Part shown: positions 2,540-27,882 of the stretch, piece by piece
Layout of the letters: every line of letters begins with the position of its first letter
How positions within the stretch are numbered: the first letter of the stretch is position 1
NCBI RefSeq assembly: GCF_009734345.1
Contig: NZ_CP032551.1
Location: 120,001 to 152,000, forward strand
DNA from: Pseudidiomarina andamanensis
Lineage (GTDB): Bacteria; Pseudomonadota; Gammaproteobacteria; Enterobacterales; Alteromonadaceae
DNA: 32,000 nt
Reading direction: 5' to 3'
Notes under the pieces: generated by a model
Databases searched by the model: none
The model's input: only the letters and a program-made list of their open reading frames with translations
What the model was told of the DNA's origin: nothing
Position numbers and translations under genes: made by a program

Positions 2540-4411
2540 ATGAGTTACCCGCGCGAATACGAATCTTCATTACAACGCACCGAGGCGTTTTGGCTAAAGC
2601 AAGCAAGTCAGTTGCATTGGTTTAAAGAGCCGAGCAAAGCATGCCACTTGAAAGCAAATGGAACCGCTGATTGGTTTGCGGATGGTGAACTCAATATTTC
2701 TTTTATGGCGTTGGATTATCACGTTGATAACGGTCGTGGTGACCAAGTTGCACTGATTTATGACTCGCCAGTAACCGAAACTAAAGAGCAGTATACATAT
2801 CGCCAGCTGCGTGATGAGGTTGCTTTGTTTGCAGGGTTGCTAAAGAAGCAACATATTAAAAAGGGTGATCGCGTCGTTATCTACATGCCGATGATTCCGC
2901 AGGCCGCGATTGCGATGCTTGCTTGTGCCCGTTTAGGTGCGATTCATTCTGTGGTGTTTGGTGGTTTTGCACCGCATGAACTTGCTGTGAGAATTGATGA
3001 TGCGACACCTAAGGTGGTGGTAACAGCCTCATGTGGTGTCGAGGTGAATCGCGTTATTCCGTATAAACCAATGGTAGATAAAGCAATCGTTGAAGCCGTG
3101 CACAAGCCAGCAAATGTGATTGTATATCAGCGTGCGCAATGCCAGGCCGATTTAAATCAACCGGGCGACTTAGATTGGCAGGCTGAGGTTGCTAAAGTGA
3201 CACCAGCCGAATGCGCCGTGGTACCAAGTACACATCCGCTTTATGTTTTGTATACATCAGGTACGACGGGTAAACCTAAGGGCGTGGTACGCGACACCGG
3301 TGGTTATGCGGTAGCGCTTAAGTATTCGATGCAAACGGTTTATGACATCAAACCGGGGCAAGTGATGTTTACCGCTTCGGATGTCGGTTGGGTTGTCGGA
3401 CATTCGTATATTGTTTATGGCCCTCTACTGGCTGGCGCGACAACGATTTTATACGAAGGAAAGCCAGTTAGAACACCGGATGCGGGCGCATTTTGGCGAA
3501 TTTGCTCGGAGTATAAGGTTGCTGTGTTGTTTAGTGCGCCAACTGCGTTTCGTGCTGTTAAAAAAGAAGACCCCGAAGGTAAGTTATTGGAGCAGTATGA
3601 TCTCAGTTCGTTAGAACGTATTTATATGGCTGGAGAACGTCTGGATCCGCCAACTTATGACTGGACCACAGAGATTACCGGGAAGCCAGTGTATGATCAT
3701 TGGTGGCAAACCGAATCGGGTTGGCCAATTTGTGCAAACCCGGTAGGCATTGCCGAGCATCCAATCAAACCAGGTTCAGCGACATTGCCGATGCCGGGTT
3801 ACGACGTGCGAATTTTAGATTACAAAGGGCAAGAAATTGGTGCAAATGAACAGGGCGCCGTCGCCATAAAATTACCATTACCTCCGGGTTGCTTAACCAC
3901 CATTTGGAATGATGAAGCGCGATTTGTCAGCGGGTATTTAAGTGAATTCGACGGTTACTATTCAACTGGTGATGGTGGCTATAAAGATGATGACGGCTAC
4001 GTTTTTATCATGGGTCGTACCGATGATGTGATTAACGTTGCAGGGCACCGATTATCAACGGGTGAGATGGAGGAAATACTCGCTAAAGATGCTGCTGTAG
4101 CTGAGTGCGCCGTGATTGGAGTTCAGGATGCGTTAAAAGGCCAGATACCGGTTGGATTAGTGATTACCAAAGATGGTGTGACGATTAGCGATAATGAGCT
4201 CAGTGCTCGTCTCGTGCAACGCGTTCGTGATGAAATTGGTGCCGTTGCCTGTTTGAAGAAAATTCTGGTCGTGCCACGGTTACCAAAAACCCGTTCAGGT
4301 AAAATTTTACGGCGTGTGTTGCGGCAAATTGCGGATGGTGAGGAAGTGGTGGTGCCATCAACAATTGACGACCCCACCTGCATTGACGAAATTCGCGAGC
4401 GCTTAAGCTAA
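2540..4411 (+). CDS. prpE: propionate--CoA ligase / acyl-CoA synthetase (PrpE-like, AMP-forming)
   Basis: 623-aa ORF with AAGGA upstream of the ATG. It has the AMP-binding signature YTSGTTGKPKGV, plus GRTDDVINVAGHRL and PKTRSGKILRR, and is collinear along its length with E. coli PrpE from memory. No prp operon neighbours are present, so substrate specificity is uncertain. Confidence 0.75.
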   Translation: MSYPREYESSLQRTEAFWLKQASQLHWFKEPSKACHLKANGTADWFADGELNISFMALDYHVDNGRGDQVALIYDSPVTETKEQYTYRQLRDEVALFAGLLKKQHIKKGDRVVIYMPMIPQAAIAMLACARLGAIHSVVFGGFAPHELAVRIDDATPKVVVTASCGVEVNRVIPYKPMVDKAIVEAVHKPANVIVYQRAQCQADLNQPGDLDWQAEVAKVTPAECAVVPSTHPLYVLYTSGTTGKPKGVVRDTGGYAVALKYSMQTVYDIKPGQVMFTASDVGWVVGHSYIVYGPLLAGATTILYEGKPVRTPDAGAFWRICSEYKVAVLFSAPTAFRAVKKEDPEGKLLEQYDLSSLERIYMAGERLDPPTYDWTTEITGKPVYDHWWQTESGWPICANPVGIAEHPIKPGSATLPMPGYDVRILDYKGQEIGANEQGAVAIKLPLPPGCLTTIWNDEARFVSGYLSEFDGYYSTGDGGYKDDDGYVFIMGRTDDVINVAGHRLSTGEMEEILAKDAAVAECAVIGVQDALKGQIPVGLVITKDGVTISDNELSARLVQRVRDEIGAVACLKKILVVPRLPKTRSGKILRRVLRQIADGEEVVVPSTIDDPTCIDEIRERLS

Positions 4412-17519: not shown

Positions 17520-17632
17520 GCGCGCCCTAGGTGAAAATGGACAGAATTTGGTCAGTGTAGGCATTTAAACCTCCGTTTACATGCCTGCGCTGGAGTGAGA
17601 TTAATCTTCCCTAACGAGTAGTGCAAACGCGT

Positions 17633-18973
17633 ATGATTACGATCAAGAAAGGGCTGGATATCCCGATTTCGGGTGCGCCCCAGCAAACTATCGAGGATGG
17701 CCAAGCCATCACCACCGTTGCCGTACTGGGTGAAGAGTATGTGGGAATGCGTCCAACCATGCATGTCAAGGTTGAAGACCGCGTTAAAAAAGGCCAGGTA
17801 CTTTTCGAAGACAAGAAAAACCCAGGGGTTAAATTCACTGCACCTGCTGCGGGCGTTGTTAAAGACGTACTGCGTGGCGCAAAGCGTGTGTTGCAAGGCG
17901 TTGTCATTGAAATTGACGGCGATGAGCAAGAAACCTTTGCCAAATACGACAGTAACGAATTAGCTAGCCTTGATCGCGCGAAGGTCGTCGAGCAATTGAA
18001 CAACTCAGGTCAATGGGTTGCATTGCGGACACGTCCATTTAGCCGCTCTCCTAAGCTTGACGCAGAGCCTACCGCAATTTTTGTTAACGCAATGGATACC
18101 AATCCATTGGCCGCTGACCCAACCGTTATTATCAACGAACACAAACAAGCATTTATTGACGGTTTGAAAGTTCTTGGCAACTTGACCCAAGGCAATGTTT
18201 TTGTGGTTAAGGCAGCTGATGCTGAAGTTGATACTGGCGATGCCAAAGTACAACTCGAGAGCTTTGCAGGTCCGCATCCTGCTGGTTTAGTTGGTACGCA
18301 TATTCACTTCTTGCAGCCAGTTTCAATGGCCAAGCACGTGTGGCATATCGGTTACCAAGACGTGATTGCCTACGGTAAATTATTCACGACTGGTGAACTC
18401 TTCACTGACCGCGTTGTTGCATTAGGTGGCCCAAGTGCTAAGAAACCACGTTTATTACGTACGCGTTTGGGTGCAAACTTGCGTGAACTCACGAAAGGTG
18501 AATTAGCGCAAGGCAACAACCGTATCGTTTCTGGTTCGGTTTTAAATGGCCATAAAGTTGATGATGCGCACCAATGGTTAGGTCGTTTCCATAACCAAGT
18601 CAGCGTATTAGCTGAAGGTGATCAGAAAGAATTCTTTGGTTGGATCAAGCCAGGTGTTAACCAACACTCGGTAACACGTGCCTATCTTGGCCACTTGAGC
18701 CCGAAGAAATTGTTTTCGATGACTACTACCACCAACGGATCTGACCGTTCGATGGTTCCAATCGGCAACTATGAGCGCGTGATGCCGCTTGATATTTTGC
18801 CAACGATTTTGCTACGTGACTTGCTCTCTGGTGACACTGAACAAGCTCAGAAATTGGGCTGCTTGGAGTTAGATGAAGAGGATTTAGCGCTGTGTTCTTA
18901 TGTTTGCCCAGGCAAATACGAGTACGGTCCTGTGTTGCGTAACATGTTGACCGAAATTGAGAAAGAGGGCTGA
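17633..18973 (+). CDS. nqrA: Na+-translocating NADH:quinone oxidoreductase subunit A
   Basis: The ORF track starts at the GTG at 17621. The ATG at 17633 gives [16 protein letters not shown], the same start as Vibrio NqrA. It is collinear to the C-terminal [20 protein letters not shown]...IEKEG. Confidence 0.95.
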
Positions 18974-18975
18974 TC

Positions 18976-20175
18976 ATGGGCTTGAAAAGTTTTCTTGAGA
19001 ATATTGAGCCAAACTTCGAAAAAGGCGGCAAGTACGAGAAGTTCTATGCCTTATACGAAGCGGCTGCAACCATTTTCTATACGCCAGGTAAAGTAACCAA
19101 AGGCATTACCCACGTAAAAGACAGCGTTGATTTGAAGCGCATCATGATCTTGGTGTGGATGATGACGTTCCCAGCAATGTTCTGGGGTATGTATAACATC
19201 GGTAACCAAGCTGCGATGGCATTGGTTAACGGTTACGAGTTAGCTGACATTTGGCAAGTAGGCTTGTTTACTGCTCTCGGCGGTGATTTAAGCACTGCAG
19301 GTTGGGCCGGTAAATTATTCTACGGCGCTTGCTTCTTTGTTCCAGTTTACGCCACAACCTTTATTGTTGGTGGCTTCTGGGAAGTCTTGTTTGCCTCAAT
19401 TCGTAAGCACGAAATCAACGAAGGCTTCTTCGTTACTTCAGTATTGTTTGCGTTGACCCTGCCAGCAACCATGCCATTGTGGCAAGTTGCGTTGGGTATC
19501 ACCTTTGGTGTGGTGATTGGTAAAGAAATTTTCGGCGGTACTGGCCGTAACTTCTTGAACCCAGCACTAACTGGTCGTGCATTTTTATACTTCGCTTTCC
19601 CAGCGTCTATTTCTGGTGAGCAAGTATGGACTGCGGTTGACGGTTTCTCTGGCGCAACGTTGTTGGGTCAAGCAACTGCAAGCACCGACTACATTGCTGA
19701 CACTGCACTCTGGTGGGATGCCTTCTTAGGTAATATCCAAGGTTCGATGGGCGAAGTTTCAACCCTAATGATTCTTATCGGTGGCTTAGCACTTATTTAT
19801 TTCCGTATCGCTTCATGGCGCATCGTCTCTGGAGTGTTCGTTGGTATGGTGGCGTTGTCATTACTGTTCAATGTGATTGGCAGTGACACCAACCCAATGT
19901 TTGCAATGCCATGGTACTGGCACTTGGTAGTAGGTGGTTTTGCCTTCGGTATGATGTTTATGGCCACTGACCCAGTATCAGCGTCGTTCACCAACAAAGG
20001 TAAGTTCTATTACGGCTTCCTGATTGGCGCAATGACAGTACTTATCCGTGTGGTAAACCCTGCGTATCCAGAAGGTATTATGCTGGCAATTTTGTTCGCC
20101 AACGTATTTGCCCCGCTGTTTGACCACTTTGTTGTTCAATCAAACATTAAACGGAGAATGGCACGCAATGGCTAA
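18976..20175 (+). CDS. nqrB: Na+-NQR subunit B
   Basis: [19 protein letters not shown]..., collinear with Vibrio NqrB. It has the FMN-attachment motif GFSGATLLG and the C-terminus [23 protein letters not shown]. Confidence 0.95.
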
Positions 20176-20944
20176 TAAAAACGAATCACTCGGCAAAACG
20201 TTATTTGTCGTTGTCGCGCTCTGTTTAGTGTGCGCGGTAATCGTGGCAGGTTCTGCAGTTGGCTTGAAGCCTATTCAGCAAAAGAATGCTGCACTCGATA
20301 TGCAACGCAACGTGTTAGATGCAGCTGGTTTATTAACGCCTGAAACTGATGTGGTTGCGGTGTTTAATGACCGTGTTGATACACGTTTAATTAACTTGAA
20401 TACACTTGAAGAAGTTGAAACTGTTGACGGTAAATCAGCTACCGAATATGACCCAATCGCATCAGCGAAAAAAGCCGGTTTAGGTTCTAAGCTTGAAAAA
20501 AGTGAAGACGTAGCAGGTATTGGTGCACTGGAAAACGTTTCTAAAGTCTATTTTATTAACGATGAAAGCGGCGCATTAGAAACGGTTGTTGTTTACGTTC
20601 GTGGCTACGGTCTGTGGGGTACTATGTACGGTCTTATGGCTGTTGCACCTGACATGAACACCATCAAAGGTATCAACTTCTACGAGCACTCTGAAACTCC
20701 GGGTCTTGGTGGCGAAATTCAGAATCCTAATTGGACTGCAAGCTGGCAAGGCAAAGAAATTTATGAAAACGGCAGTGTCGCCATTGATGTGACAAAAAAT
20801 GTCACTGACAAAGCGCATGATATTGATGCACTTTCAGGCGCAACCCTAACCAGTAACGGTGTCGAGAACACGATGCAATTCTGGTTTAGCGATAAAGCTT
20901 ATGGCCCACTGTTCGATAAAATTCGCAAAGGGGAGCTGAACTAA
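20168..20944 (+). CDS. nqrC: Na+-NQR subunit C
   Basis: ATG at 20168 ([20 protein letters not shown], an N-terminal TM anchor) overlaps the nqrB stop by 8 nt. It has the FMN-attachment motif [12 protein letters not shown]. Confidence 0.9.
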
Positions 20945-21576
20945 TGGCGAGTGCAAAAGAAGTCAAAGAGGTTCTATTTGGACCGATTTTTGCCAACAAC
21001 CCGATTGCCCTACAAATTTTAGGTATCTGCTCGGCGTTGGCAGTCACTTCGAAAATGGAAAATACCGTGGTTATGTGTATTGCACTAACTTTGGTTACAG
21101 CGTTTTCGAACTTATTTATTTCAATTATTCGTAATCATATTCCGTCAAGCGTACGTATCATTGTACAAATGACCATTATCGCGAGCTTGGTTATTGTTGT
21201 TGACCAGGTGCTGCGGGCTTATGCTTACAGTATTGCAAAAGAATTGTCGGTATTCGTTGGTTTGATCATTACCAACTGTATCGTTATGGGTCGTGCTGAA
21301 GCTTATGCAATGAAGAGCCCACCAATGTTGTCGTTCCTAGATGGTATCGGTAACGGTTTGGGTTACTCAGTAGTGTTGTTGACCGTTGGTTTCATTCGTG
21401 AGCTATTCGGTTCTGGTAGCCTATTTGGCTATCAAATTTTACAGCTCGCTTCTGAGGGCGGTTGGTATCAACCAATCGGCTTGTTGGTATTGCCACCAAG
21501 CGCATTCTTCATTATCGGCGGCTTCATTTGGGTACTGCGTACCTTCCGCAAAGAACAAGTAGAGCCGAAGGAATAA
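20944..21576 (+). CDS. nqrD: Na+-NQR subunit D
   Basis: 210 aa polytopic protein. The conserved Cys pair is present in GICSALAV and ITNCIVMG. The start overlaps the nqrC stop (TAATG). Confidence 0.95.
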
Positions 21577-21586
21577 GGAGCAGACC

Positions 21587-22195
21587 ATGGAAGCCTATAT
21601 CAGTTTATTTATTAAATCGATTTTCGTTGAAAACTTAGCGTTATCGTTCTTCCTTGGTATGTGTACTTTCTTGGCGGTGTCTAAGAAAGTAACCACAGCT
21701 TTTGGTTTGGGCGTTGCGGTAATTGTTGTTCTGGGCATTTCGGTACCTGCTAACAACCTGGTTTATCACAACATTCTAGCGCCTGGCGCGTTAGATTGGG
21801 CTGGTTTCCCAGACGCAGACTTAAGTTTCTTACGTTTCTTGACCTTTATCGGCGTGATTGCAGCGTTGGTACAGATTCTTGAAATGGCACTCGACAAATA
21901 CGTTCCTGCTTTATACAACGCGTTAGGTATCTTCTTACCGTTGATTACTGTGAACTGCGCAATCTTTGGTGGCGTATCATTCATGGTAGAGCGTGATTAC
22001 ACTTTCTCGGAGAGTGTGGTTTACGGTATTGGCGGCGGCGTAGGCTGGGCGTTAGCGATTGTTGCTTTGGCAGCGGTACGCGAGAAGCTGAAATATGCAG
22101 ACGTGCCAGATGGATTACGTGGCTTGGGCATCACCTTTATGACGGTGGGTCTGATTGGTTTAGGGTTTATGTCTTTCTCAGGCATTTCACTCTAA
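21587..22195 (+). CDS. nqrE: Na+-NQR subunit E
   Basis: 202 aa polytopic protein, with the conserved Cys pair in GMCTFLAV and TVNCAIFG. Confidence 0.95.
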
Positions 22196-22242
22196 TTTCA
22201 TCCGGTTACGAACGATAACGTATTAAGTAGAGGTACAAGTCG

Positions 22243-23484
22243 ATGCAAGGGCAAGATTTGACACTAATAGCGCTCGGCGTAGGCATGTTTACCTTGATTG
22301 TATTGATTTTGGTTGCGGTGATTATGTTCGCTAAATCAAAATTGGTCCCTCAGGGTGATGTCGAGATTTTAATTAACGATGACGAAGACAAGAAAATTAC
22401 CACCCAACCGGGCACGAAGTTGCTTGGCGCACTAGCTAACGCGGGTATTTTCGTATCGTCAGCGTGTGGTGGCGGTGGCTCATGTGGCCAGTGCCGTGTG
22501 GTGATCAAAGAAGGTGGCGGTGAGATTCTGCCAACTGAGCGTGACCACATTAACCGCAAAGAAGCACGTGAAGGTTGCCGTTTATCTTGTCAGGTAAACG
22601 TGAAGCAAAATATGAAAATCGAACTTCCAGAGGAAGTATTCGGTATTCGTAAGTGGGATTGTACGGTTAAATCGAACAATAACGTTGCCACCTTCATTAA
22701 AGAATTTGTGGTGCAATTGCCAGAAGGCGAGGAAGTTCCATTCCGCGCTGGTGGTTACATTCAAATTGAATGCCCACCGCACCATGTGAAATTTAAAGAT
22801 TTCGACATTGAAGAAAAATTCCGTGGCGATTGGGAACACTTCGGCTTCTTTAACCTTGAGTCAAAAGTTAACGAAGAAGTTATTCGTGCTTACTCGATGG
22901 CGAATTACCCAGATGAGAAAGGCATCATCATGTTGAACGTGCGTATCGCTACGCCGCCTCCGCGTGATATGAGCTTGCCACCAGGTCAAATGTCGTCATA
23001 CATCTTTAGCTTGAAGCCAGGCGATAAAGTGACGATTTCTGGTCCATTTGGTGAATTCTTCGCGAAAGATACCAAAGCTGAGATGGTGTTTGTTGGTGGT
23101 GGTGCTGGTATGGCGCCGATGCGCTCACACATCTTCGACCAATTACGTCGCTTGAAATCTGACCGTAAGATGACGTTCTGGTACGGTGCTCGTTCTAAGA
23201 AAGAAATGTTCTATGTTGAAGATTTCGATATGTTGGCTCGTGAAAACGACAACTTCGAATGGCACGTGGCACTATCTGACCCACAACCAGAAGATAACTG
23301 GGAAGGGTACACCGGCTTTATTCACAATGTATTGTTCGAGAACTATCTGAAGGACCACGAAGCGCCTGAAGATTGTGAGTTCTACATGTGTGGACCACCG
23401 ATGATGAACGCTGCAGTCATAAAAATGTTGAAAGACTTAGGCGTCGAAGACGAGAACATCTTGTTGGATGACTTCGGTGGCTAA
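22243..23484 (+). CDS. nqrF: Na+-NQR subunit F (2Fe-2S ferredoxin / FAD / NADH domain)
   Basis: N-terminal TM helix, the 2Fe-2S motif [15 protein letters not shown], the FAD motif RAYSMANYP, the NADH motif [11 protein letters not shown] and the C-terminus ILLDDFGG. Collinear with Vibrio NqrF. Confidence 0.95.
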
Positions 23485-23518: not shown

Positions 23519-24541
23519 ATGAAGATGAATTTGTCATCGACTCTGCGAATTTGGCTAGCCCTGATAGGGCTGGCCTTTTTCGTTTCATGTACGCCGGCAC
23601 CGCAACAAATTTCAGTGTCGGGCGAAACCATGGGCACGACCTACCATATCCGCTATGTCACGGCGAACCCAAATCATTCGCCGGAACGCGTGAAAGAGCG
23701 GGTTGATGCAGTGTTAGAGCAAGTGAATAGCCAGATGTCGACTTATGATCCGAACTCTGAGTTATCGCTGTTTAATCAACGCAAAACAACAGAGCCCGTG
23801 GTTGTATCGCGTTCGTTAGAGACAGTTGTTCGCCGTGCACTTGAAGTTGGTGAAGAAACCAATGGATTATTAGATGTCACGGTTGGTCCGCTAGTTAATT
23901 TGTGGGGCTTTGGTCCTTTAGGTCGACCTGAACAAGTACCTTCTGAGCAGCAATTGCAGGAAGTTCGTGATCAGATTGGCTATCAATATTTGACGGTAGA
24001 AAATCACCAGTTAACGAAGGCTATTCCTGATTTGTATGTCGATTTGTCGACCATTGCGAAAGGTTACGGTGTTGACCGTGTTGCGATTTTGCTTGAGCAA
24101 ATGGAAATCAAAAATTACTTGGTGGAAATTGGTGGTGAAATGCGCATGCGTGGTACCAAGCCGGGTGAGCAACCTTGGCGGATTGCTGTTGAGCAGCCGG
24201 TATCTTTAGAGCGTGCGGTTCAACGCATTATCGAGCCGGGTAACAACGCTGTGGCGACCTCAGGTGATTATCGCAACTACTTCGAAGAAGATGGCGTGCG
24301 TTACTCGCATATTATCGATCCTCGTACAGGGTATCCAATTCAGCACAACTTAGTTTCGGTAACAGTGATAACAGACACGTGTATGGATGCCGATGCTTAC
24401 GCAACGGCATTGACGGTTATGGGCGCTGAAGAGGCACTTGAGTTCGCGAATAAAAAAGGTTTAGCGGTACTTTTAGTGACCCGTGAAAACGATCAATTTA
24501 AAGAGTACACTAGTACTGCATTCAAACGATTTGAGCAGTAG
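23519..24541 (+). CDS. apbE: FAD:protein FMN transferase ApbE (lipoprotein)
   Basis: 340 aa with a lipobox-type signal (LAFFVSCTP). ApbE blocks are present: GETMGTTYHI, DLSTIAKGYGVD, TSGDYRNYFE..G.RYSHIIDPRTG.P and DADAYATAL. It occupies the canonical position after nqrF. Confidence 0.9.
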   Translation: MKMNLSSTLRIWLALIGLAFFVSCTPAPQQISVSGETMGTTYHIRYVTANPNHSPERVKERVDAVLEQVNSQMSTYDPNSELSLFNQRKTTEPVVVSRSLETVVRRALEVGEETNGLLDVTVGPLVNLWGFGPLGRPEQVPSEQQLQEVRDQIGYQYLTVENHQLTKAIPDLYVDLSTIAKGYGVDRVAILLEQMEIKNYLVEIGGEMRMRGTKPGEQPWRIAVEQPVSLERAVQRIIEPGNNAVATSGDYRNYFEEDGVRYSHIIDPRTGYPIQHNLVSVTVITDTCMDADAYATALTVMGAEEALEFANKKGLAVLLVTRENDQFKEYTSTAFKRFEQ

Positions 24542-24555
24542 CTCAGGAGGTCCAC

Positions 24556-24786
24556 ATGGGCGTTTTTATTGCTGTATTCGTCATCATGTTGGTGGTGGTA
24601 TTAGCTATGTCGGTGGGTTTCATCGCCCAACGCAAATCTATTTCCGGTAGCTGTGGCGGTATCTCGTCATTAGGCATGGAAAAGGCTTGCGACTGCAAAG
24701 ATCCGTGCGATGATAAGAAAGCGCGCATGGCTGAAGAAGCTCGAGCTGCGAAAGAAAAGCAGTGGCAGGAAAATCGAATCGATTAA
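24556..24786 (+). CDS. nqrM: Na+-NQR maturation protein NqrM (DUF539)
   Basis: 76 aa with AGGAGG upstream. It has one N-terminal TM helix followed by the four-Cys pattern SGSCGG...CDCKDPC, in the canonical position after apbE. Confidence 0.8.
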   Translation: MGVFIAVFVIMLVVVLAMSVGFIAQRKSISGSCGGISSLGMEKACDCKDPCDDKKARMAEEARAAKEKQWQENRID

Positions 24787-24804
24787 AGTGAAGGAGTTAA
24801 ACTG

Positions 24805-26952
24805 ATGGTTACACCGGTACAAATTCGCCCGAAAACGGCTGAAATTTACCTTGATTGCAACGCAACAACACCGGTGTTACCTCAGATAGCTCAAGCTGTT
24901 GAACACGTGATGGAACATGTGTTCGGAAACCCTTCCAGTAGTCATATTACCGGCCTTCAGGCTCGCTATATTCTCGACAATACACGTCGACTCGGACGCC
25001 AAGTCATTGGCGCACCGCGCGGACGCGTGTTCTTTACCAGCGGTGCTACCGAAGGTATTCAAACTGCTGTTTTGTCTGCCTTAACTGCTGCACGGAATAG
25101 CACGAACTTAGGCGGTAAACGCTGGTTACTCTATGGCGCGACCGAGCACAAAGCCGTGCCGCAAGCGCTTGAGCACTGGAATAAATTACTGCAACTGAAT
25201 GCTGAATTGAAACCGATACCCGTAGATAAACGCGGTAAGCTAGATCTGCAGTTTATCGCGGAGCATGTTGGTGCCGCGCATATGATCTGTACTATGGCCG
25301 TGAATAATGAAACGGGTGTGATGCAAGATCTAAAAGCCTTAGAGGACGTAATTCGCGCTGAAAATACGACCGTGCCGTGGATGGTTGACTGTGTTCAAGC
25401 ACTCGGGAAGCAATCGCTTCAGCTCAGCGAGACAACCATTGATTATGCACCTTTTAGTGGCCACAAACTTTATGGCCCTAAAGGCATTGGTTTTATGTAT
25501 GTTCGTGAAAGTGCGCCGTTTACACCATTGATTATTGGTGGTGGTCAGGAACAGGGGCAACGTTCAGGAACTGAAAACCTTCCAGGCATAGCGGCTTTAC
25601 ACGCGCTGTTTGAGTTGTTGTTAAATAATGAGCAGCAAGTTTTTCAGAGCCACGCAGTGCTTGAAGAATATCGGGAAAAATTACTGAACGCATTGCGTAG
25701 TGTATTTCCAACCTTGGTGCTGAACCATGAGCTTGCGGATTCAGTGCCAACCACGTTGAATTTCTCAGTGCGAGGTGTGCCGTCGCGCGACATTATGGAC
25801 GTGTTCGATGCGGCAAATATTCGTGTCAGCTCTGGTTCGGCGTGTAGCTCTGGCGTTACCCGAAGTTTCGTTCTTGATGCAATGGGTTTGGAGGCGTGGC
25901 GCTCTAGTTCAGCCATTCGTCTTTCATTCGGTCCTGCCACTTCAGCGGCTACCATTGATGCTGCGTGCGCACGCATTCGTGATGCGGCAATGGCATTAAG
26001 ACAATCTTGTCTATTAGTTTCTGATACCAATGAAGATGTTGATAGCAACCTTGATGGGGTCGTTCAACTTCGCTTTGATAGCCACTGTTGCTATTTACTT
26101 ATTGATAAAGCTGCCGGTGAAATGGCAGTGATTGATCCAGTTCCTGAGCTAGCTGAACGCATTGAACGATTAGTAGCGTGCCAGAATTATCGTGTGAAAG
26201 CCGTATTGACCACCGAAGCACAAGCGCCTGACAGCCCTGCAGCGATGCTCGCCCAGTTGCTATGTGCCAGTGGATGCAGTGCGCAGCGAGACGCGGTTGG
26301 CTGGCCATTAGATGCGGTTGGTGGATGCGAAGCGCCCGTTGAATGCCAAGTTGAGGTGTTCGGATGTCTGCGGGTCGGTAAACGTCGCTTATACCGTGTT
26401 GGTACGAGAGAACCATTGTTTTTATTAAGTTCACCGCTGATTGACGATGCATCGACGCCCCATGTTGATTTCGCGTTTATTGGCGAGCAAGACGACGTTG
26501 CGCAATTGATGAAAGCGGTACATGAGCAAACCCTCTTGCTTGCTCGTCGTGATGATGCGTTTCGAGTCGTTGAGAAGCTATGTGAAGTTTCAGGTGACTG
26601 TGTGCCGTGCCAGCTTATTGATGTATCGCTGGAACAACAGCAAGAGTGGTTGGCGCAGCCAGAAACCTTAGTCGTTGATGTGCGTGAGCAACAAGAGCAT
26701 CAAGTACGTCAACTATCGGTTGATGCAGAAGTGATCAATGTACCATTAACGCGCTTAGCTCAATTTATTTACAGCCATCGCGCGCAGTATAAACAACGCC
26801 CAATTGTTTGTGTGTGTCGTTCGGGCCACCGCAGTGCAGTTGCCGCGCAAGTGTTAGCGCGACACGGATTCGAACAAGTGAGCCACTTATCTGGCGGTAC
26901 TGCATTACTCATTGAAGCTGATGCGCGCGACAAAGCCATCTTTGCCAACTAA
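24805..26952 (+). CDS. three-domain protein: class-V (NifS/IscS-like) cysteine desulfurase, degenerate MBL/persulfide-dioxygenase-like middle domain, catalytic rhodanese domain
   Basis: 715 aa with GAAGGAG upstream, 18 nt after the nqrM stop. N-terminal domain: LDCNATTP, FTSGATEGIQ, the PLP-Lys motif FSGHKLYGPKG (Lys codon 25465-25467), RSGTENLPGIAAL and the persulfide loop SSGSACSSG (Cys codon 25843-25845). Middle domain, about aa 415-600: CCYLLIDKAAGEMAVIDPVPE...VKAVLTTEAQAPDS resembles the ETHE1/MBL N-terminal strand-loop pattern but has no HxHxDH. C-terminal domain: rhodanese with the active-site loop CRSGHRS (Cys codon 26815-26817). Confidence 0.8.
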   Translation: MVTPVQIRPKTAEIYLDCNATTPVLPQIAQAVEHVMEHVFGNPSSSHITGLQARYILDNTRRLGRQVIGAPRGRVFFTSGATEGIQTAVLSALTAARNSTNLGGKRWLLYGATEHKAVPQALEHWNKLLQLNAELKPIPVDKRGKLDLQFIAEHVGAAHMICTMAVNNETGVMQDLKALEDVIRAENTTVPWMVDCVQALGKQSLQLSETTIDYAPFSGHKLYGPKGIGFMYVRESAPFTPLIIGGGQEQGQRSGTENLPGIAALHALFELLLNNEQQVFQSHAVLEEYREKLLNALRSVFPTLVLNHELADSVPTTLNFSVRGVPSRDIMDVFDAANIRVSSGSACSSGVTRSFVLDAMGLEAWRSSSAIRLSFGPATSAATIDAACARIRDAAMALRQSCLLVSDTNEDVDSNLDGVVQLRFDSHCCYLLIDKAAGEMAVIDPVPELAERIERLVACQNYRVKAVLTTEAQAPDSPAAMLAQLLCASGCSAQRDAVGWPLDAVGGCEAPVECQVEVFGCLRVGKRRLYRVGTREPLFLLSSPLIDDASTPHVDFAFIGEQDDVAQLMKAVHEQTLLLARRDDAFRVVEKLCEVSGDCVPCQLIDVSLEQQQEWLAQPETLVVDVREQQEHQVRQLSVDAEVINVPLTRLAQFIYSHRAQYKQRPIVCVCRSGHRSAVAAQVLARHGFEQVSHLSGGTALLIEADARDKAIFAN

Positions 26953-27882
26953 ATAACAGCGTTGATTGATACAGGCGCTGTTCCAAATGTTTGCATCGCT
27001 CAATTGCTTCCAAGTCATATCGGCGCTGTTAAGATAAGCAGCGCCATTCGGGTTACTCACTAACATATCGCCGTTTGGGCGAACCGTTAAGCTGTAAAGT
27101 GCACCGTTAAACTCAGGCTCGGGCAGGGCGGCAAACTCGCCGTTTTGATACCGCATAAGTCGCGGAACTGCGGCGGGATCATTTAAATCACCACCAGCAA
27201 TAATTACATCGTTTTCAGCAAGTGGCCAAACGCTCGCAATACCGGCGCTAGGCCCAGCTGGCAGTGGCGTATCAATGGCTTTGAAACGAATACCAAAATT
27301 ACGTTTTACTAATAATCGAGCTTTACTGCTATTGGCGGTGCCAATGGCCCAGACATTGTTGTTAAAGCGTACACAACCGCCACTGGCAGCTAACCCGCCC
27401 TCATCGGGCAATGGCGCACTATCTACCACATTACTTGCCGATAACCAGTTGCGTCCGTCGGTGCTGCGTACCATTTCCCAGCGGCCTTCAAGACTATCGC
27501 CATATACCCAAGCTTCACCGCTATTCGCCATGGCGATGCAGTTAAGAAATTGATTCGAACCCGCACGATAGCGAAGTTGCCAATTGCGTCCGCCATTCGA
27601 AGTGTAATAAACGCGCGAGTCACCATTTTCGCCAATACTTAAGGCGTAGGCGTGGTTCGCATCAAGCGCTTCAATGTCGCGAAACTGCAGGCTTTCGTTG
27701 GCGGGATTAAAGTACTCCCATGTATCGCCAGCATCGGTGCTGCGAGCAATTGTTGCATTCGAGCCGCTCATCCAGACAACATTGTTGGTTGGTGCGCTAA
27801 CACCAATCCAATGCACGTCGGGCTTACTCTCTAAAGAGGTAACACTTATTGCCGTTGCAACAACCAAACTTACCGCAATCAT
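26905..27882 (-). CDS. BNR/Asp-box beta-propeller protein (Ycf48-like), secreted or membrane-anchored
   Basis: 325 aa with ACGAGG upstream and a hydrophobic N-terminus, MIAVSLVVATAISV. It has an Asp-box STDAGDTW plus degenerate repeats TSNGGRNW and STDGRNW. It lies 68 nt downstream of copA on the same strand, and its 3' end overlaps the convergent 24805..26952 gene by 48 nt. Confidence 0.6.
   Translation of the reverse strand: MIAVSLVVATAISVTSLESKPDVHWIGVSAPTNNVVWMSGSNATIARSTDAGDTWEYFNPANESLQFRDIEALDANHAYALSIGENGDSRVYYTSNGGRNWQLRYRAGSNQFLNCIAMANSGEAWVYGDSLEGRWEMVRSTDGRNWLSASNVVDSAPLPDEGGLAASGGCVRFNNNVWAIGTANSSKARLLVKRNFGIRFKAIDTPLPAGPSAGIASVWPLAENDVIIAGGDLNDPAAVPRLMRYQNGEFAALPEPEFNGALYSLTVRPNGDMLVSNPNGAAYLNSADMTWKQLSDANIWNSACINQRCYLVGKDGFVARISFNE

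What the first reader, a model, noticed from the sequence alone, without database searches (positions are those of the whole stretch)
24541..24830. The desulfurase-rhodanese gene appears to extend the nqrABCDEF-apbE-nqrM operon: a dedicated sulfur donor for NQR maturation?
Gaps are 14 nt (apbE to nqrM) and 18 nt (nqrM to the fusion gene). Each has a strong RBS (AGGAGG, GAAGGAG). I see no hairpin or T-run between them, and the next gene is convergent. The fusion gene is therefore most simply the last gene of the nqr transcription unit. ApbE flavinylates NqrB and NqrC. NqrM (DUF539, four Cys) has been reported as required for NQR maturation, and was proposed to service the iron or iron-sulfur centre held by the four Cys of NqrD and NqrE. 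Those Cys are present here ([32 protein letters not shown]). A cysteine desulfurase-rhodanese encoded next to nqrM could supply the sulfide or persulfide for that centre. This is a hypothesis drawn from gene order only.
Basis: inference. Interest (0 to 1): 0.6.

Follow-up and report, generated by a model that had tools for sequence, protein, structure and literature searches.

The report
Sulfur-transfer gene parked behind nqr operon
A cysteine-desulfurase/rhodanese gene really does sit 18 bases behind the sodium-pump (NQR) maturation gene nqrM in this Pseudidiomarina genome. Comparison with about 190 related genomes shows a lineage-specific neighbour from sulfide/persulfide metabolism, often separately transcribed or lost, not a dedicated NQR assembly factor.

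Summary
The order is nqrA-F, apbE, nqrM, then a 715-aa gene, with gaps of 14 and 18 nt, good ribosome-binding sites, no hairpin or T-run, and a convergent next gene.

- The protein is a NifS-type cysteine desulfurase, a persulfide-dioxygenase (PDO) fold with all metal ligands lost, and an intact rhodanese.
- It derives from a stand-alone desulfurase-PDO-rhodanese gene of Alteromonadaceae that is never next to nqr (14 genomes, 13 genera).
- The nqrM linkage exists only in three Idiomarina-clade genera (56 of 71 species).
- In one sister genus an intrinsic terminator and a TATAAT box separate it from nqrM.
- In Idiomarina it carries a 16-bp palindrome that otherwise marks the pdo-sqr sulfide-oxidation promoter.
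- Eight genomes that keep nqrF and nqrM, three from this genus, have no ortholog anywhere.
- This genome also has a full iscRSUA operon.

In Pseudidiomarina the spacer has collapsed, so read-through from nqr is plausible. The gene is under strong purifying selection. It most likely makes cysteine-derived persulfide for reactive-sulfur handling, like the characterised Pseudorhodoferax CD-Rhd.

Earlier notes of this scan report the three-domain family in other genomes; I did not check those.

The parts
17621..23484 (+). nqrA-nqrF structural genes of Na+-NQR
   Evidence: ORF list. NqrF domains Fer2, FAD_binding_6 and NAD_binding_1. NqrD and NqrE Cys motifs.
23519..24541 (+). apbE, FAD:protein FMN transferase
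   Evidence: Pfam ApbE 7e-96; NCBIfam ApbE 4e-105.
24542..24555 (+). 14-nt apbE-nqrM spacer with AGGAGG
   Evidence: Sequence. No promoter or terminator hit.
24556..24786 (+). nqrM (DUF539), one N-terminal hydrophobic stretch and four Cys (residues 33, 45, 47, 51)
   Evidence: Pfam NqrM 2.6e-20; translation.
24787..24804 (+). 18-nt nqrM-fusion spacer with GAAGGAG. It lacks the terminator, TATAAT box and GTTATA-N4-TATAAC palindrome seen at this position in sister genera.
24805..26043 (+). Fusion protein residues 1-413: group-I (NifS/IscS-type) cysteine desulfurase domain. PLP Lys221 (SGHK, nt 25456-25473); persulfide Cys347 (SSGSACSS, nt 25828-25851).
   Evidence: Pfam Aminotran_5 2.9e-58. Residues invariant in 52 orthologs. 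Foldseek match to 1ecx, TM 0.91.
26044..26619 (+). Residues 414-605: remnant of a persulfide-dioxygenase (MBL) domain. HxHxDH is replaced by TTEAQAPD (nt 26209-26232), the GHT motif is deleted, GD is replaced by GEQ, HDY is replaced by RDD, and there are three deletions.
   Evidence: Alignment A1. No Pfam hit. AF2 pLDDT is mostly 80-93 in this region. Best folds are BpPRF 5ve3-5, CstB 3r2u and ETHE1 4chl. dN is far below dS.
26620..26952 (+). Residues 606-715: rhodanese domain with the six-residue active loop CRSGHR followed by Ser (CRSGHRS, Cys671, nt 26815-26835), then the stop codon
   Evidence: Pfam Rhodanese 4.3e-10. Cys671, Arg672, Ser673, Gly674, Arg676 and Ser677 are invariant. Best PDB sequence match is the BpPRF rhodanese domain, 1e-7.
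26905..27882 (-). Convergent BNR/Ycf48-like beta-propeller gene. It overlaps the fusion gene's 3' end by 48 nt and marks the end of the + strand unit.
   Evidence: In species without the fusion gene it follows nqrM directly.

Best explanation
The 715-aa gene encodes a persulfide-generating sulfur-transfer enzyme.

Domains and mechanism:
- The N-terminal part is a NifS-type cysteine desulfurase.
- The middle part is a structurally retained but catalytically dead persulfide-dioxygenase (PDO) domain.
- The C-terminal part is a rhodanese that looks active.
- Inferred mechanism: PLP-dependent removal of sulfur from L-cysteine gives a persulfide on Cys347. This is passed to rhodanese Cys671. From there it goes to low-molecular-weight thiols, sulfite or protein acceptors. 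The genome's stand-alone PDO could oxidise the product.

Origin:
- The gene descends from a stand-alone, monocistronic desulfurase-PDO-rhodanese gene of Alteromonadaceae that belongs to sulfide/persulfide metabolism.
- In the ancestor of the Idiomarina clade it came to lie between nqrM and a convergent BNR gene, as a separate transcription unit.
- In Idiomarina that unit carries the operator-like palindrome of the pdo-sqr operon.

Situation in this genome:
- In Pseudidiomarina the spacer collapsed to 9-47 nt and the terminator and operator were lost.
- The gene is therefore probably read through from the nqr promoter.
- It is not a required or dedicated NQR maturation factor.

What is shown: domain identities, motif losses, the distribution of the linkage, terminators and the palindrome in relatives, gene losses, and purifying selection.
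What is inferred: the enzymatic flow, regulation by a sulfide/persulfide sensor, and co-transcription in this genome.
For: Domains:
- Pfam, NCBIfam and PDB sequence searches and AF2 plus Foldseek identify the three parts.
- Lys221, Cys347 and Cys671 are invariant, while every PDO metal motif is lost in Idiomarina and Pseudidiomarina. The motifs are intact in Shewanella, Pseudoalteromonas, Parashewanella and Colwellia orthologs.

Linkage:
- 56 of 71 species in three genera have the gene after nqrM.
- None of 14 genomes (13 genera) with stand-alone orthologs have it there. Their neighbours are unrelated genes such as malic enzyme, a porin, FadR and DsbB.
- None of 8 other families show the linkage.

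Separate transcription in relatives:
- Canonical terminators follow nqrM in genus g11 and in L092, followed by TATAAT boxes.
- The palindrome GTTATA-N4-TATAAC lies about 20 nt upstream of the start codon in nearly all linked Idiomarina loci.
- The only other perfect copies in the Idiomarina genomes scanned lie in the pdo/DUF442-sqr divergent promoter. That site is present in 15 of 19 genomes. The PDO matches 4ysk at 4e-110 and the SQR matches human SQOR at 3e-95.

Dispensability and function:
- The gene is absent genome-wide from 8 genomes that keep nqrF and nqrM, 7 of them at least 94% complete.
- This genome has a housekeeping iscRSUA operon (IscS 770 bits against a cut-off of 548) and a stand-alone PDO.
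- For the closest species pair, dN is 0.05-0.06 while dS exceeds 2 in all three parts.
- The characterised Pseudorhodoferax CD-Rhd fusion performs L-cysteine-dependent transpersulfidation (PMC8931425).
Against: - No expression data exist, so co-transcription here and independent transcription in relatives are read from sequence only.
- The regulator that binds the palindrome was not identified, so the regulon inference rests on a shared motif.
- The adjacency to nqrM has persisted across three genera. It survives even where apbE is missing from between nqrF and nqrM. In this genus it tightened into an operon-like arrangement. A functional link could favour all of this.
- No enzymatic activity has been measured for any member of the three-domain family.
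Confidence: 0.62

Rival explanations
1. The enzyme is a dedicated or auxiliary sulfur donor for NQR maturation. It would hand cysteine-derived persulfide to NqrM for assembly of the intramembrane [2Fe-2S] cluster held by NqrD and NqrE.
For: - The gene lies 18 nt after nqrM with no terminator.
- The linkage is kept in 56 of 71 Idiomarina-clade species and is tightened in Pseudidiomarina.
- The NqrD/E centre is now known to be a [2Fe-2S] cluster that needs sulfide, and NqrM is thought to be required for it (PMC12174285).
- Loss of the PDO site coincides with the lineage that shows the linkage.
Against: - nqr-bearing genomes of 8 other families, and 14 genomes with orthologs, show no linkage.
- A terminator and separate promoter lie between nqrM and the gene in genus g11.
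- The operator-like palindrome is shared with pdo-sqr, not with nqr.
- Eight genomes keep nqrF and nqrM, and where present apbE, but have lost the gene.
- A complete ISC system is present in this genome.
- V. cholerae NQR was produced in active form in V. natriegens without co-expressing any extra assembly genes (PMC6209661).
Confidence: 0.1
2. The enzyme is a general sulfur-relay enzyme for thio-cofactors or tRNA thiolation. It would act like the IscS-ThiI, IscS-YnjE or NFS1-MOCS3 pairs, and its position beside nqr would be incidental.
For: Pairing of a cysteine desulfurase with a rhodanese is the usual logic of such relays (PMC8931425). The catalytic residues are intact. The gene is under strong purifying selection.
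Against: - The module descends from a PDO-rhodanese (PRF/CstB-type) enzyme of sulfide metabolism.
- The palindrome is shared with pdo-sqr.
- The gene is patchy and often lost, which is unlike an essential biosynthetic relay.
- No thiolation or Moco genes lie nearby.
Confidence: 0.15
3. The gene is a decaying relic with no remaining function in this small-genome lineage. The series runs from loss of the PDO site, to loss of the rhodanese in genus g11, to loss of the whole gene in several species.
For: A stepwise domain-decay series is visible across genera. The gene has been lost repeatedly.
Against: - The reading frame is intact in 19 of 22 Pseudidiomarina species.
- dN is far below dS in all three parts, including the dead PDO remnant.
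- All catalytic residues of the desulfurase and the rhodanese are invariant.
- The middle domain is confidently folded in the model.
Confidence: 0.05

Closest known systems
Pseudorhodoferax sp. Leaf274 CD-Rhd natural fusion (Selles et al. 2022, PMC8931425)
   Same: It has an N-terminal PLP cysteine desulfurase and a C-terminal single rhodanese, each with a catalytic Cys. It was shown to take sulfur from L-cysteine and carry out transpersulfidation. This is the activity expected for the window protein once its PDO is dead.
   Different: It is a 54-kDa two-domain protein with no MBL domain between the two parts. The window protein keeps a 190-residue PDO-fold remnant and comes from a different, three-domain lineage. 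No homology beyond the domain level was tested here.
BpPRF, the persulfide dioxygenase-rhodanese fusion of Burkholderia phytofirmans (PDB 5VE3/5VE4/5VE5), and S. aureus CstB (3R2U)
   Same: These are the best structural matches for residues 414-715, with the same domain order of MBL then rhodanese. Orthologs with intact motifs match across both domains by sequence (P0104 residues 423-753 against 5ve3, 1.7e-19).
   Different: The window protein has lost the HxHxDH, GHT, GD and HDY motifs and carries three deletions, so it cannot bind the catalytic iron. It also carries an N-terminal cysteine desulfurase that PRF and CstB lack.
NifS/IscS group-I cysteine desulfurases (T. maritima NifS-like 1ECX; E. 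coli IscS)
   Same: It shares the fold (TM 0.91 to 1ecx), the PLP lysine in SGHK, RSGTEN, and the flexible-loop Cys in SSGSAC.
   Different: It scores far below the NCBIfam equivalog cut-offs: NifS 266 against 531, IscS 212 against 643. It is only 32% identical to the genome's own IscS. It is not in an isc, nif or suf context.
ApbE and NqrM, the known accessory genes of the nqr operon (Vibrio cholerae nqrABCDEF-apbE-nqrM)
   Same: It follows them on the same strand with operon-like spacing in this genome.
   Different: ApbE and NqrM accompany nqr in all the other families sampled. This gene does so only in the Idiomarina clade, often behind a terminator, and it is dispensable in congeners.

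Membership tests
Group-I (NifS/IscS-type) cysteine desulfurase | Aminotransferase class-V fold with a PLP-binding Lys | tested here: met
   Pfam PF00266 at 198 bits against a cut-off of 21.5. Lys221 in SGHK is invariant. Foldseek match to 1ecx, TM 0.91.
Group-I (NifS/IscS-type) cysteine desulfurase | Catalytic Cys on the flexible loop (SSGSAC motif) | tested here: met
   Cys347 in SSGSACSS is invariant in 52 orthologs.
IscS or NifS proper (NCBIfam equivalogs) | Score above the curated equivalog cut-off | tested here: not met
   TIGR03402 NifS 266 against 531; TIGR02006 IscS 212 against 643. The true IscS lies elsewhere in the genome, at 770 bits.
Persulfide dioxygenase (ETHE1/PRF type) | MBL alpha-beta/beta-alpha fold | tested here: met
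   AF2 model of residues 414-715 has pLDDT 86. Best matches are BpPRF (1e-12), CstB and ETHE1.
Persulfide dioxygenase (ETHE1/PRF type) | Metal-binding motifs HxHxDH, GHT, GD and HDY | tested here: not met
   The motifs are replaced or deleted (TTEAQAPD; deletion; GEQ; RDD) in the window protein and all Idiomarina-clade orthologs. They are intact in Shewanella, Pseudoalteromonas and Colwellia orthologs. There is no Pfam Lactamase_B hit.
Rhodanese sulfurtransferase | Rhodanese domain with a six-residue CRxGxR active-site loop | tested here: met
   PF00581 at 40.4 bits against a cut-off of 22.2. In CRSGHRS, Cys671, Arg672, Ser673, Gly674, Arg676 and Ser677 are invariant.
nqr operon accessory or maturation gene | Same-strand position with no terminator or promoter between it and nqrM in this genome | tested here: met
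   The gap is 18 nt, with no scan hits and no significant RNA structure. Transcription itself cannot be tested with these tools.
nqr operon accessory or maturation gene | Linkage with nqr conserved across nqr-bearing taxa | tested here: not met
   Linkage is found in only three genera (56 of 71 species). It is absent from 14 genomes with orthologs and from 8 other families. A terminator intervenes in genus g11.
nqr operon accessory or maturation gene | Retained wherever nqr is retained, as a proxy for being required | tested here: not met
   Eight genomes with nqrF and nqrM have no ortholog anywhere.
nqr operon accessory or maturation gene | Needed for NQR activity or for the NqrD/E [2Fe-2S] cluster | not testable with these tools
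   This needs a deletion mutant and an enzymatic or EPR assay.

The most novel reading that the evidence does not exclude
In Pseudidiomarina the desulfurase-rhodanese gene has been captured by the nqr operon. It lost its own terminator, promoter and sulfide-type operator, and its PDO activity. It has been repurposed as an on-site persulfide supplier that feeds NqrM for building the membrane-buried [2Fe-2S] cluster of NqrD/E. This would be the first pathway-specific sulfur donor for a respiratory-complex Fe-S centre in bacteria. It would be auxiliary to ISC, which would explain why some congeners can lose it.
Probability: 0.08. Interest if true: 0.75.

Novelty: new variant of a known kind. Interest (0 to 1): 0.35.

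Why it matters
How the intramembrane [2Fe-2S] cluster of NqrD/E is assembled, and what NqrM does, are open questions. A dedicated sulfur donor would have been a direct handle on them. The comparative evidence says this gene is not that handle, which saves a misdirected experiment.

What remains of value:
- An uncharacterised three-domain enzyme family (cysteine desulfurase, persulfide dioxygenase, rhodanese) that probably processes cysteine sulfur without free sulfide.
- A natural series in which the dioxygenase site, then the rhodanese, then the whole gene are lost.
- A candidate operator (GTTATA-N4-TATAAC) that ties the gene to the pdo-sqr sulfide-oxidation genes in Idiomarina.
- Natural 'knock-out' congeners that could be used to test any residual link to NQR.

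Tried and rejected
1. I looked for a conserved functional neighbourhood around the stand-alone orthologs in 13 genera. The neighbours are unrelated housekeeping genes (malic enzyme, porin, 2-hydroxyacid dehydrogenase, FadR, DsbB, sigma/anti-sigma), so no theme emerged.
2. I tried to name the regulator of the GTTATA-N4-TATAAC palindrome.
   - No regulator gene lies beside the pdo-sqr locus.
   - The papers on BigR, SqrR and CstR that I read did not give a matching operator.
   - Genome-wide counts with one mismatch allowed are not above the control; only the perfect copies are informative.
3. I searched the window for that palindrome. Nothing better than 2-3 mismatches turned up, at chance frequency, and none is upstream of the gene.
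4. I attempted dN/dS ratios per domain. dS is saturated even for the closest species, so only the bound 'dN far below dS' can be stated.
5. A Foldseek search with the full 715-residue model returned only cysteine desulfurases. I had to re-model the C-terminal 302 residues to see the PDO-rhodanese matches.
6. I considered recent horizontal transfer. GC and GC3 of the gene are like its neighbours', and the gene tracks the clade, so I did not pursue it.
7. A full-text literature search found no paper on a desulfurase-PDO-rhodanese fusion or on any nqrM-linked desulfurase.


Full report
**Observation.** The window lies in a 2.41-Mb, single-contig genome. The best protein matches (92-97% identity) are to Pseudidiomarina.

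- nqrA-F at 17621-23484
- apbE at 23519-24541
- nqrM at 24556-24786
- a 715-aa ORF at 24805-26952
- a convergent 325-aa BNR-like gene at 26905-27882, which overlaps the ORF's 3' end by 48 nt

The spacers are 14 nt (with AGGAGG) and 18 nt (with GAAGGAG). Pfam confirms ApbE, NqrM, and Aminotran_5 plus Rhodanese. The consensus scan finds no promoter-like or terminator-like site in either gap. The junction RNAs fold no better than shuffled sequence. The Cys motifs of NqrD and NqrE and the four Cys of NqrM are present.

**What the protein is.**
- *Residues 1-413* are a group-I cysteine desulfurase.
  - Lys221 (SGHK) and Cys347 (SSGSACSS) are invariant in 52 orthologs.
  - The AF2 model (pLDDT 85) superposes on the T. 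maritima NifS-like protein 1ecx with TM 0.91.
  - It is not IscS or NifS proper, because it scores far below both equivalog cut-offs.
  - The genome has a true iscRSUA operon and a SufS/CsdA-like enzyme elsewhere.
- *Residues 606-715* are a rhodanese with the loop CRSGHRS, and Cys671 is invariant.
- *Residues 414-605* have no Pfam hit. In orthologs from Shewanella, Parashewanella, Pseudoalteromonas and Colwellia the same region is a Lactamase_B domain.
  - The best solved relatives of that domain are human ETHE1, and BpPRF across both the MBL and rhodanese domains.
  - Those orthologs keep HxHxDH, GHT, GD and HDY.
  - Thalassotalea-type orthologs are partly degenerate.
  - All Idiomarina and Pseudidiomarina proteins have lost every motif and carry three deletions.
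  - A separate AF2 model of residues 414-715 (pLDDT 86) still finds BpPRF (E 1e-12), CstB and ETHE1 as its best folds.

The middle part is therefore a folded but metal-less PDO remnant. Within Pseudidiomarina, dN is 0.05-0.06 for the closest pair while dS is saturated, in all three parts. The gene is maintained by selection.

**Distribution of the linkage.** Among 60 other genera of the GTDB family, full-length orthologs occur in about 17.
- In 14 genomes of 13 genera the gene stands alone.
  - Its intergenic regions are sizeable and its neighbours vary and are unrelated.
  - There is no nqrM or apbE within the flanks.
  - One of these loci has only 578 nt upstream.
- I then took the nqrM loci of whole genera as the sample.

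| Genus | Species with the gene directly after nqrM |
|---|---|
| This genus (Pseudidiomarina) | 19 of 22 |
| Genus of G031 (Idiomarina-like) | 26 of 28 |
| Genus of G010 (g11) | 11 of 21 |

- In species without the gene, nqrM is in most cases followed directly by the convergent BNR gene.
- Eight other families of the order have nqrF-apbE-nqrM with no such gene downstream.
- Whole-genome searches of eight non-carriers find only IscS-level hits (32-40% identity).
  - The eight are G069, G061 and G063 in this genus, plus G107, G130, G131, G133 and G136.
  - Seven of them are at least 94% complete.
- NQR-bearing close relatives therefore do without the gene.

**Transcription signals in relatives**.
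- In Pseudidiomarina the spacer is 9-47 nt. The one exception has a 185-nt heptamer-repeat insertion.
- In genus g11 the spacer is mostly 70-123 nt (25 nt in L132).
  - It starts with a canonical intrinsic terminator, for example AGGCGCTTAGCGCC followed by a T-run.
  - A TATAAT box follows. The scan and RNA folding confirm this.
  - The protein in G010 is 604 aa with no detectable rhodanese.
- In Idiomarina the spacer is 52-153 nt.
  - It almost always holds a perfect 16-bp palindrome, GTTATA-N4-TATAAC, about 20 nt before the start codon.
  - One locus (L092) also has a terminator.
- In the four Idiomarina genomes scanned, the only other perfect copies of the palindrome (in two of them) lie between two divergent PDO-type MBL genes.
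  - One of these genes heads an operon with a DUF442-SQR fusion.
  - The PDO matches P. putida SdoA (4ysk) at 4e-110, and the flavoprotein matches human SQOR at 3e-95.
  - Across the genus, 15 of 19 such loci carry the palindrome, many with a second copy at -53. A paralogous PDO locus never does.
- A GTTATAA half-site or -10-like element also precedes many stand-alone orthologs.
- The window has no copy of the palindrome near the gene. Its genome has no perfect copy. It does have a stand-alone PDO with YeiH-like and TauE-like neighbours, but it lacks the Idiomarina-type SQR.

**Interpretation.** The gene was originally a self-standing member of sulfide/persulfide metabolism. It became a neighbour of nqrM in the Idiomarina-clade ancestor and stayed there as an independent unit. 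Only in Pseudidiomarina did it lose its own signals and acquire operon-like spacing. Read-through from nqr is therefore plausible here but unproven.

A dedicated role in NQR maturation is disfavoured on four grounds:
- the narrow distribution of the linkage
- the terminators in a sister genus
- the operator shared with pdo-sqr
- the repeated losses in genomes that keep nqr

The literature does give the hypothesis a rationale. The NqrD/E centre is a [2Fe-2S] cluster, and NqrM appears to be required for it (PMC12174285). However, V. cholerae NQR was produced in active form in V. natriegens without co-expressed assembly genes (PMC6209661).

Mechanistically the protein should behave like the characterised Pseudorhodoferax CD-Rhd. 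That enzyme transfers cysteine-derived persulfide through its rhodanese (PMC8931425). Here the dead PDO domain would serve as a structural spacer, and the genome's separate PDO would be available in trans.

**Novelty.** I found no paper on the three-domain family or on an nqrM-linked desulfurase. Earlier notes of this scan report the same three-domain architecture in other genomes; I did not check those notes. The dead-PDO subfamily, its decay series and the shared palindrome are new variants of known kinds. The proposed NQR link remains a low-probability possibility that a deletion mutant or the natural non-carriers could settle.

Noticed in passing
L085-L112 spacers; L141:3550-3565 and 3716-3731; L142:3720-3735: A perfect 16-bp palindrome, GTTATA-N4-TATAAC, marks two places in Idiomarina. 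One is the desulfurase-rhodanese gene. The other is the divergent promoter of a pdo/pdo-like pair plus a DUF442-SQR operon (15 of 19 genomes). It is probably the operator of an unidentified sulfide/persulfide-responsive regulator. No regulator gene lies nearby.
   Followed up: partly
L061 (G071), the 185 nt between nqrM and the fusion gene: The spacer is filled by tandem heptamers (TTACTAG/CTGGTTA on one side, CTAATAG/CCAATAG on the other). It looks like a copy of the heptamer-armed hairpin element family already noted in this genus, inserted between the two genes.
   Followed up: no
L113-L117, L123, L124, L127-L129 (genus of G010): In about half of these species apbE is missing from between nqrF and nqrM. 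In the other half the gene at that position is only 25-30% identical to this window's ApbE. The accessory part of the nqr operon is fluid in that genus.
   Followed up: no
window 23553-23575: The strongest terminator-like hairpin in the scan (10 bp, then TTTTTCGTTT) lies 34 nt inside apbE, over the codons of its lipoprotein signal peptide (WLALIGLAFFVSC). The same hairpin is conserved in L118. It may be a coding constraint, or an attenuator between nqrF and the accessory genes.
   Followed up: no
window 26905-26952; L066, L072, L074: The fusion gene and the BNR gene overlap convergently by 48 nt. In congeners that lack the fusion gene, the BNR gene follows nqrM convergently with only about 20 nt between the two matches, so the loss looks like a clean excision of exactly one gene.
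   Followed up: partly
G000:C1:1954467-1959309 (outside the window): The window's own genome has a stand-alone type-II PDO (288 aa, 56% identical to the Idiomarina PDO). It follows a sensor-like gene and a response-regulator gene, and is followed by YeiH-like and TauE-like membrane proteins and a 1-Cys peroxiredoxin. No ortholog of the Idiomarina DUF442-SQR was found.
   Followed up: partly
A1 alignment, P0060 and P0065 (Thalassotalea, Thalassomonas): These orthologs keep GHT, GD and HDY but have HKHAEQ or HRHDGQ in place of HxHxDH. This is an intermediate state of PDO-site decay.
   Followed up: no
L054:7729-9543 (G010): The nqrM-linked ortholog in this genus is 604 aa. Its desulfurase domain is well conserved, but the tail of about 220 residues gives no rhodanese or MBL hit.
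   Followed up: partly
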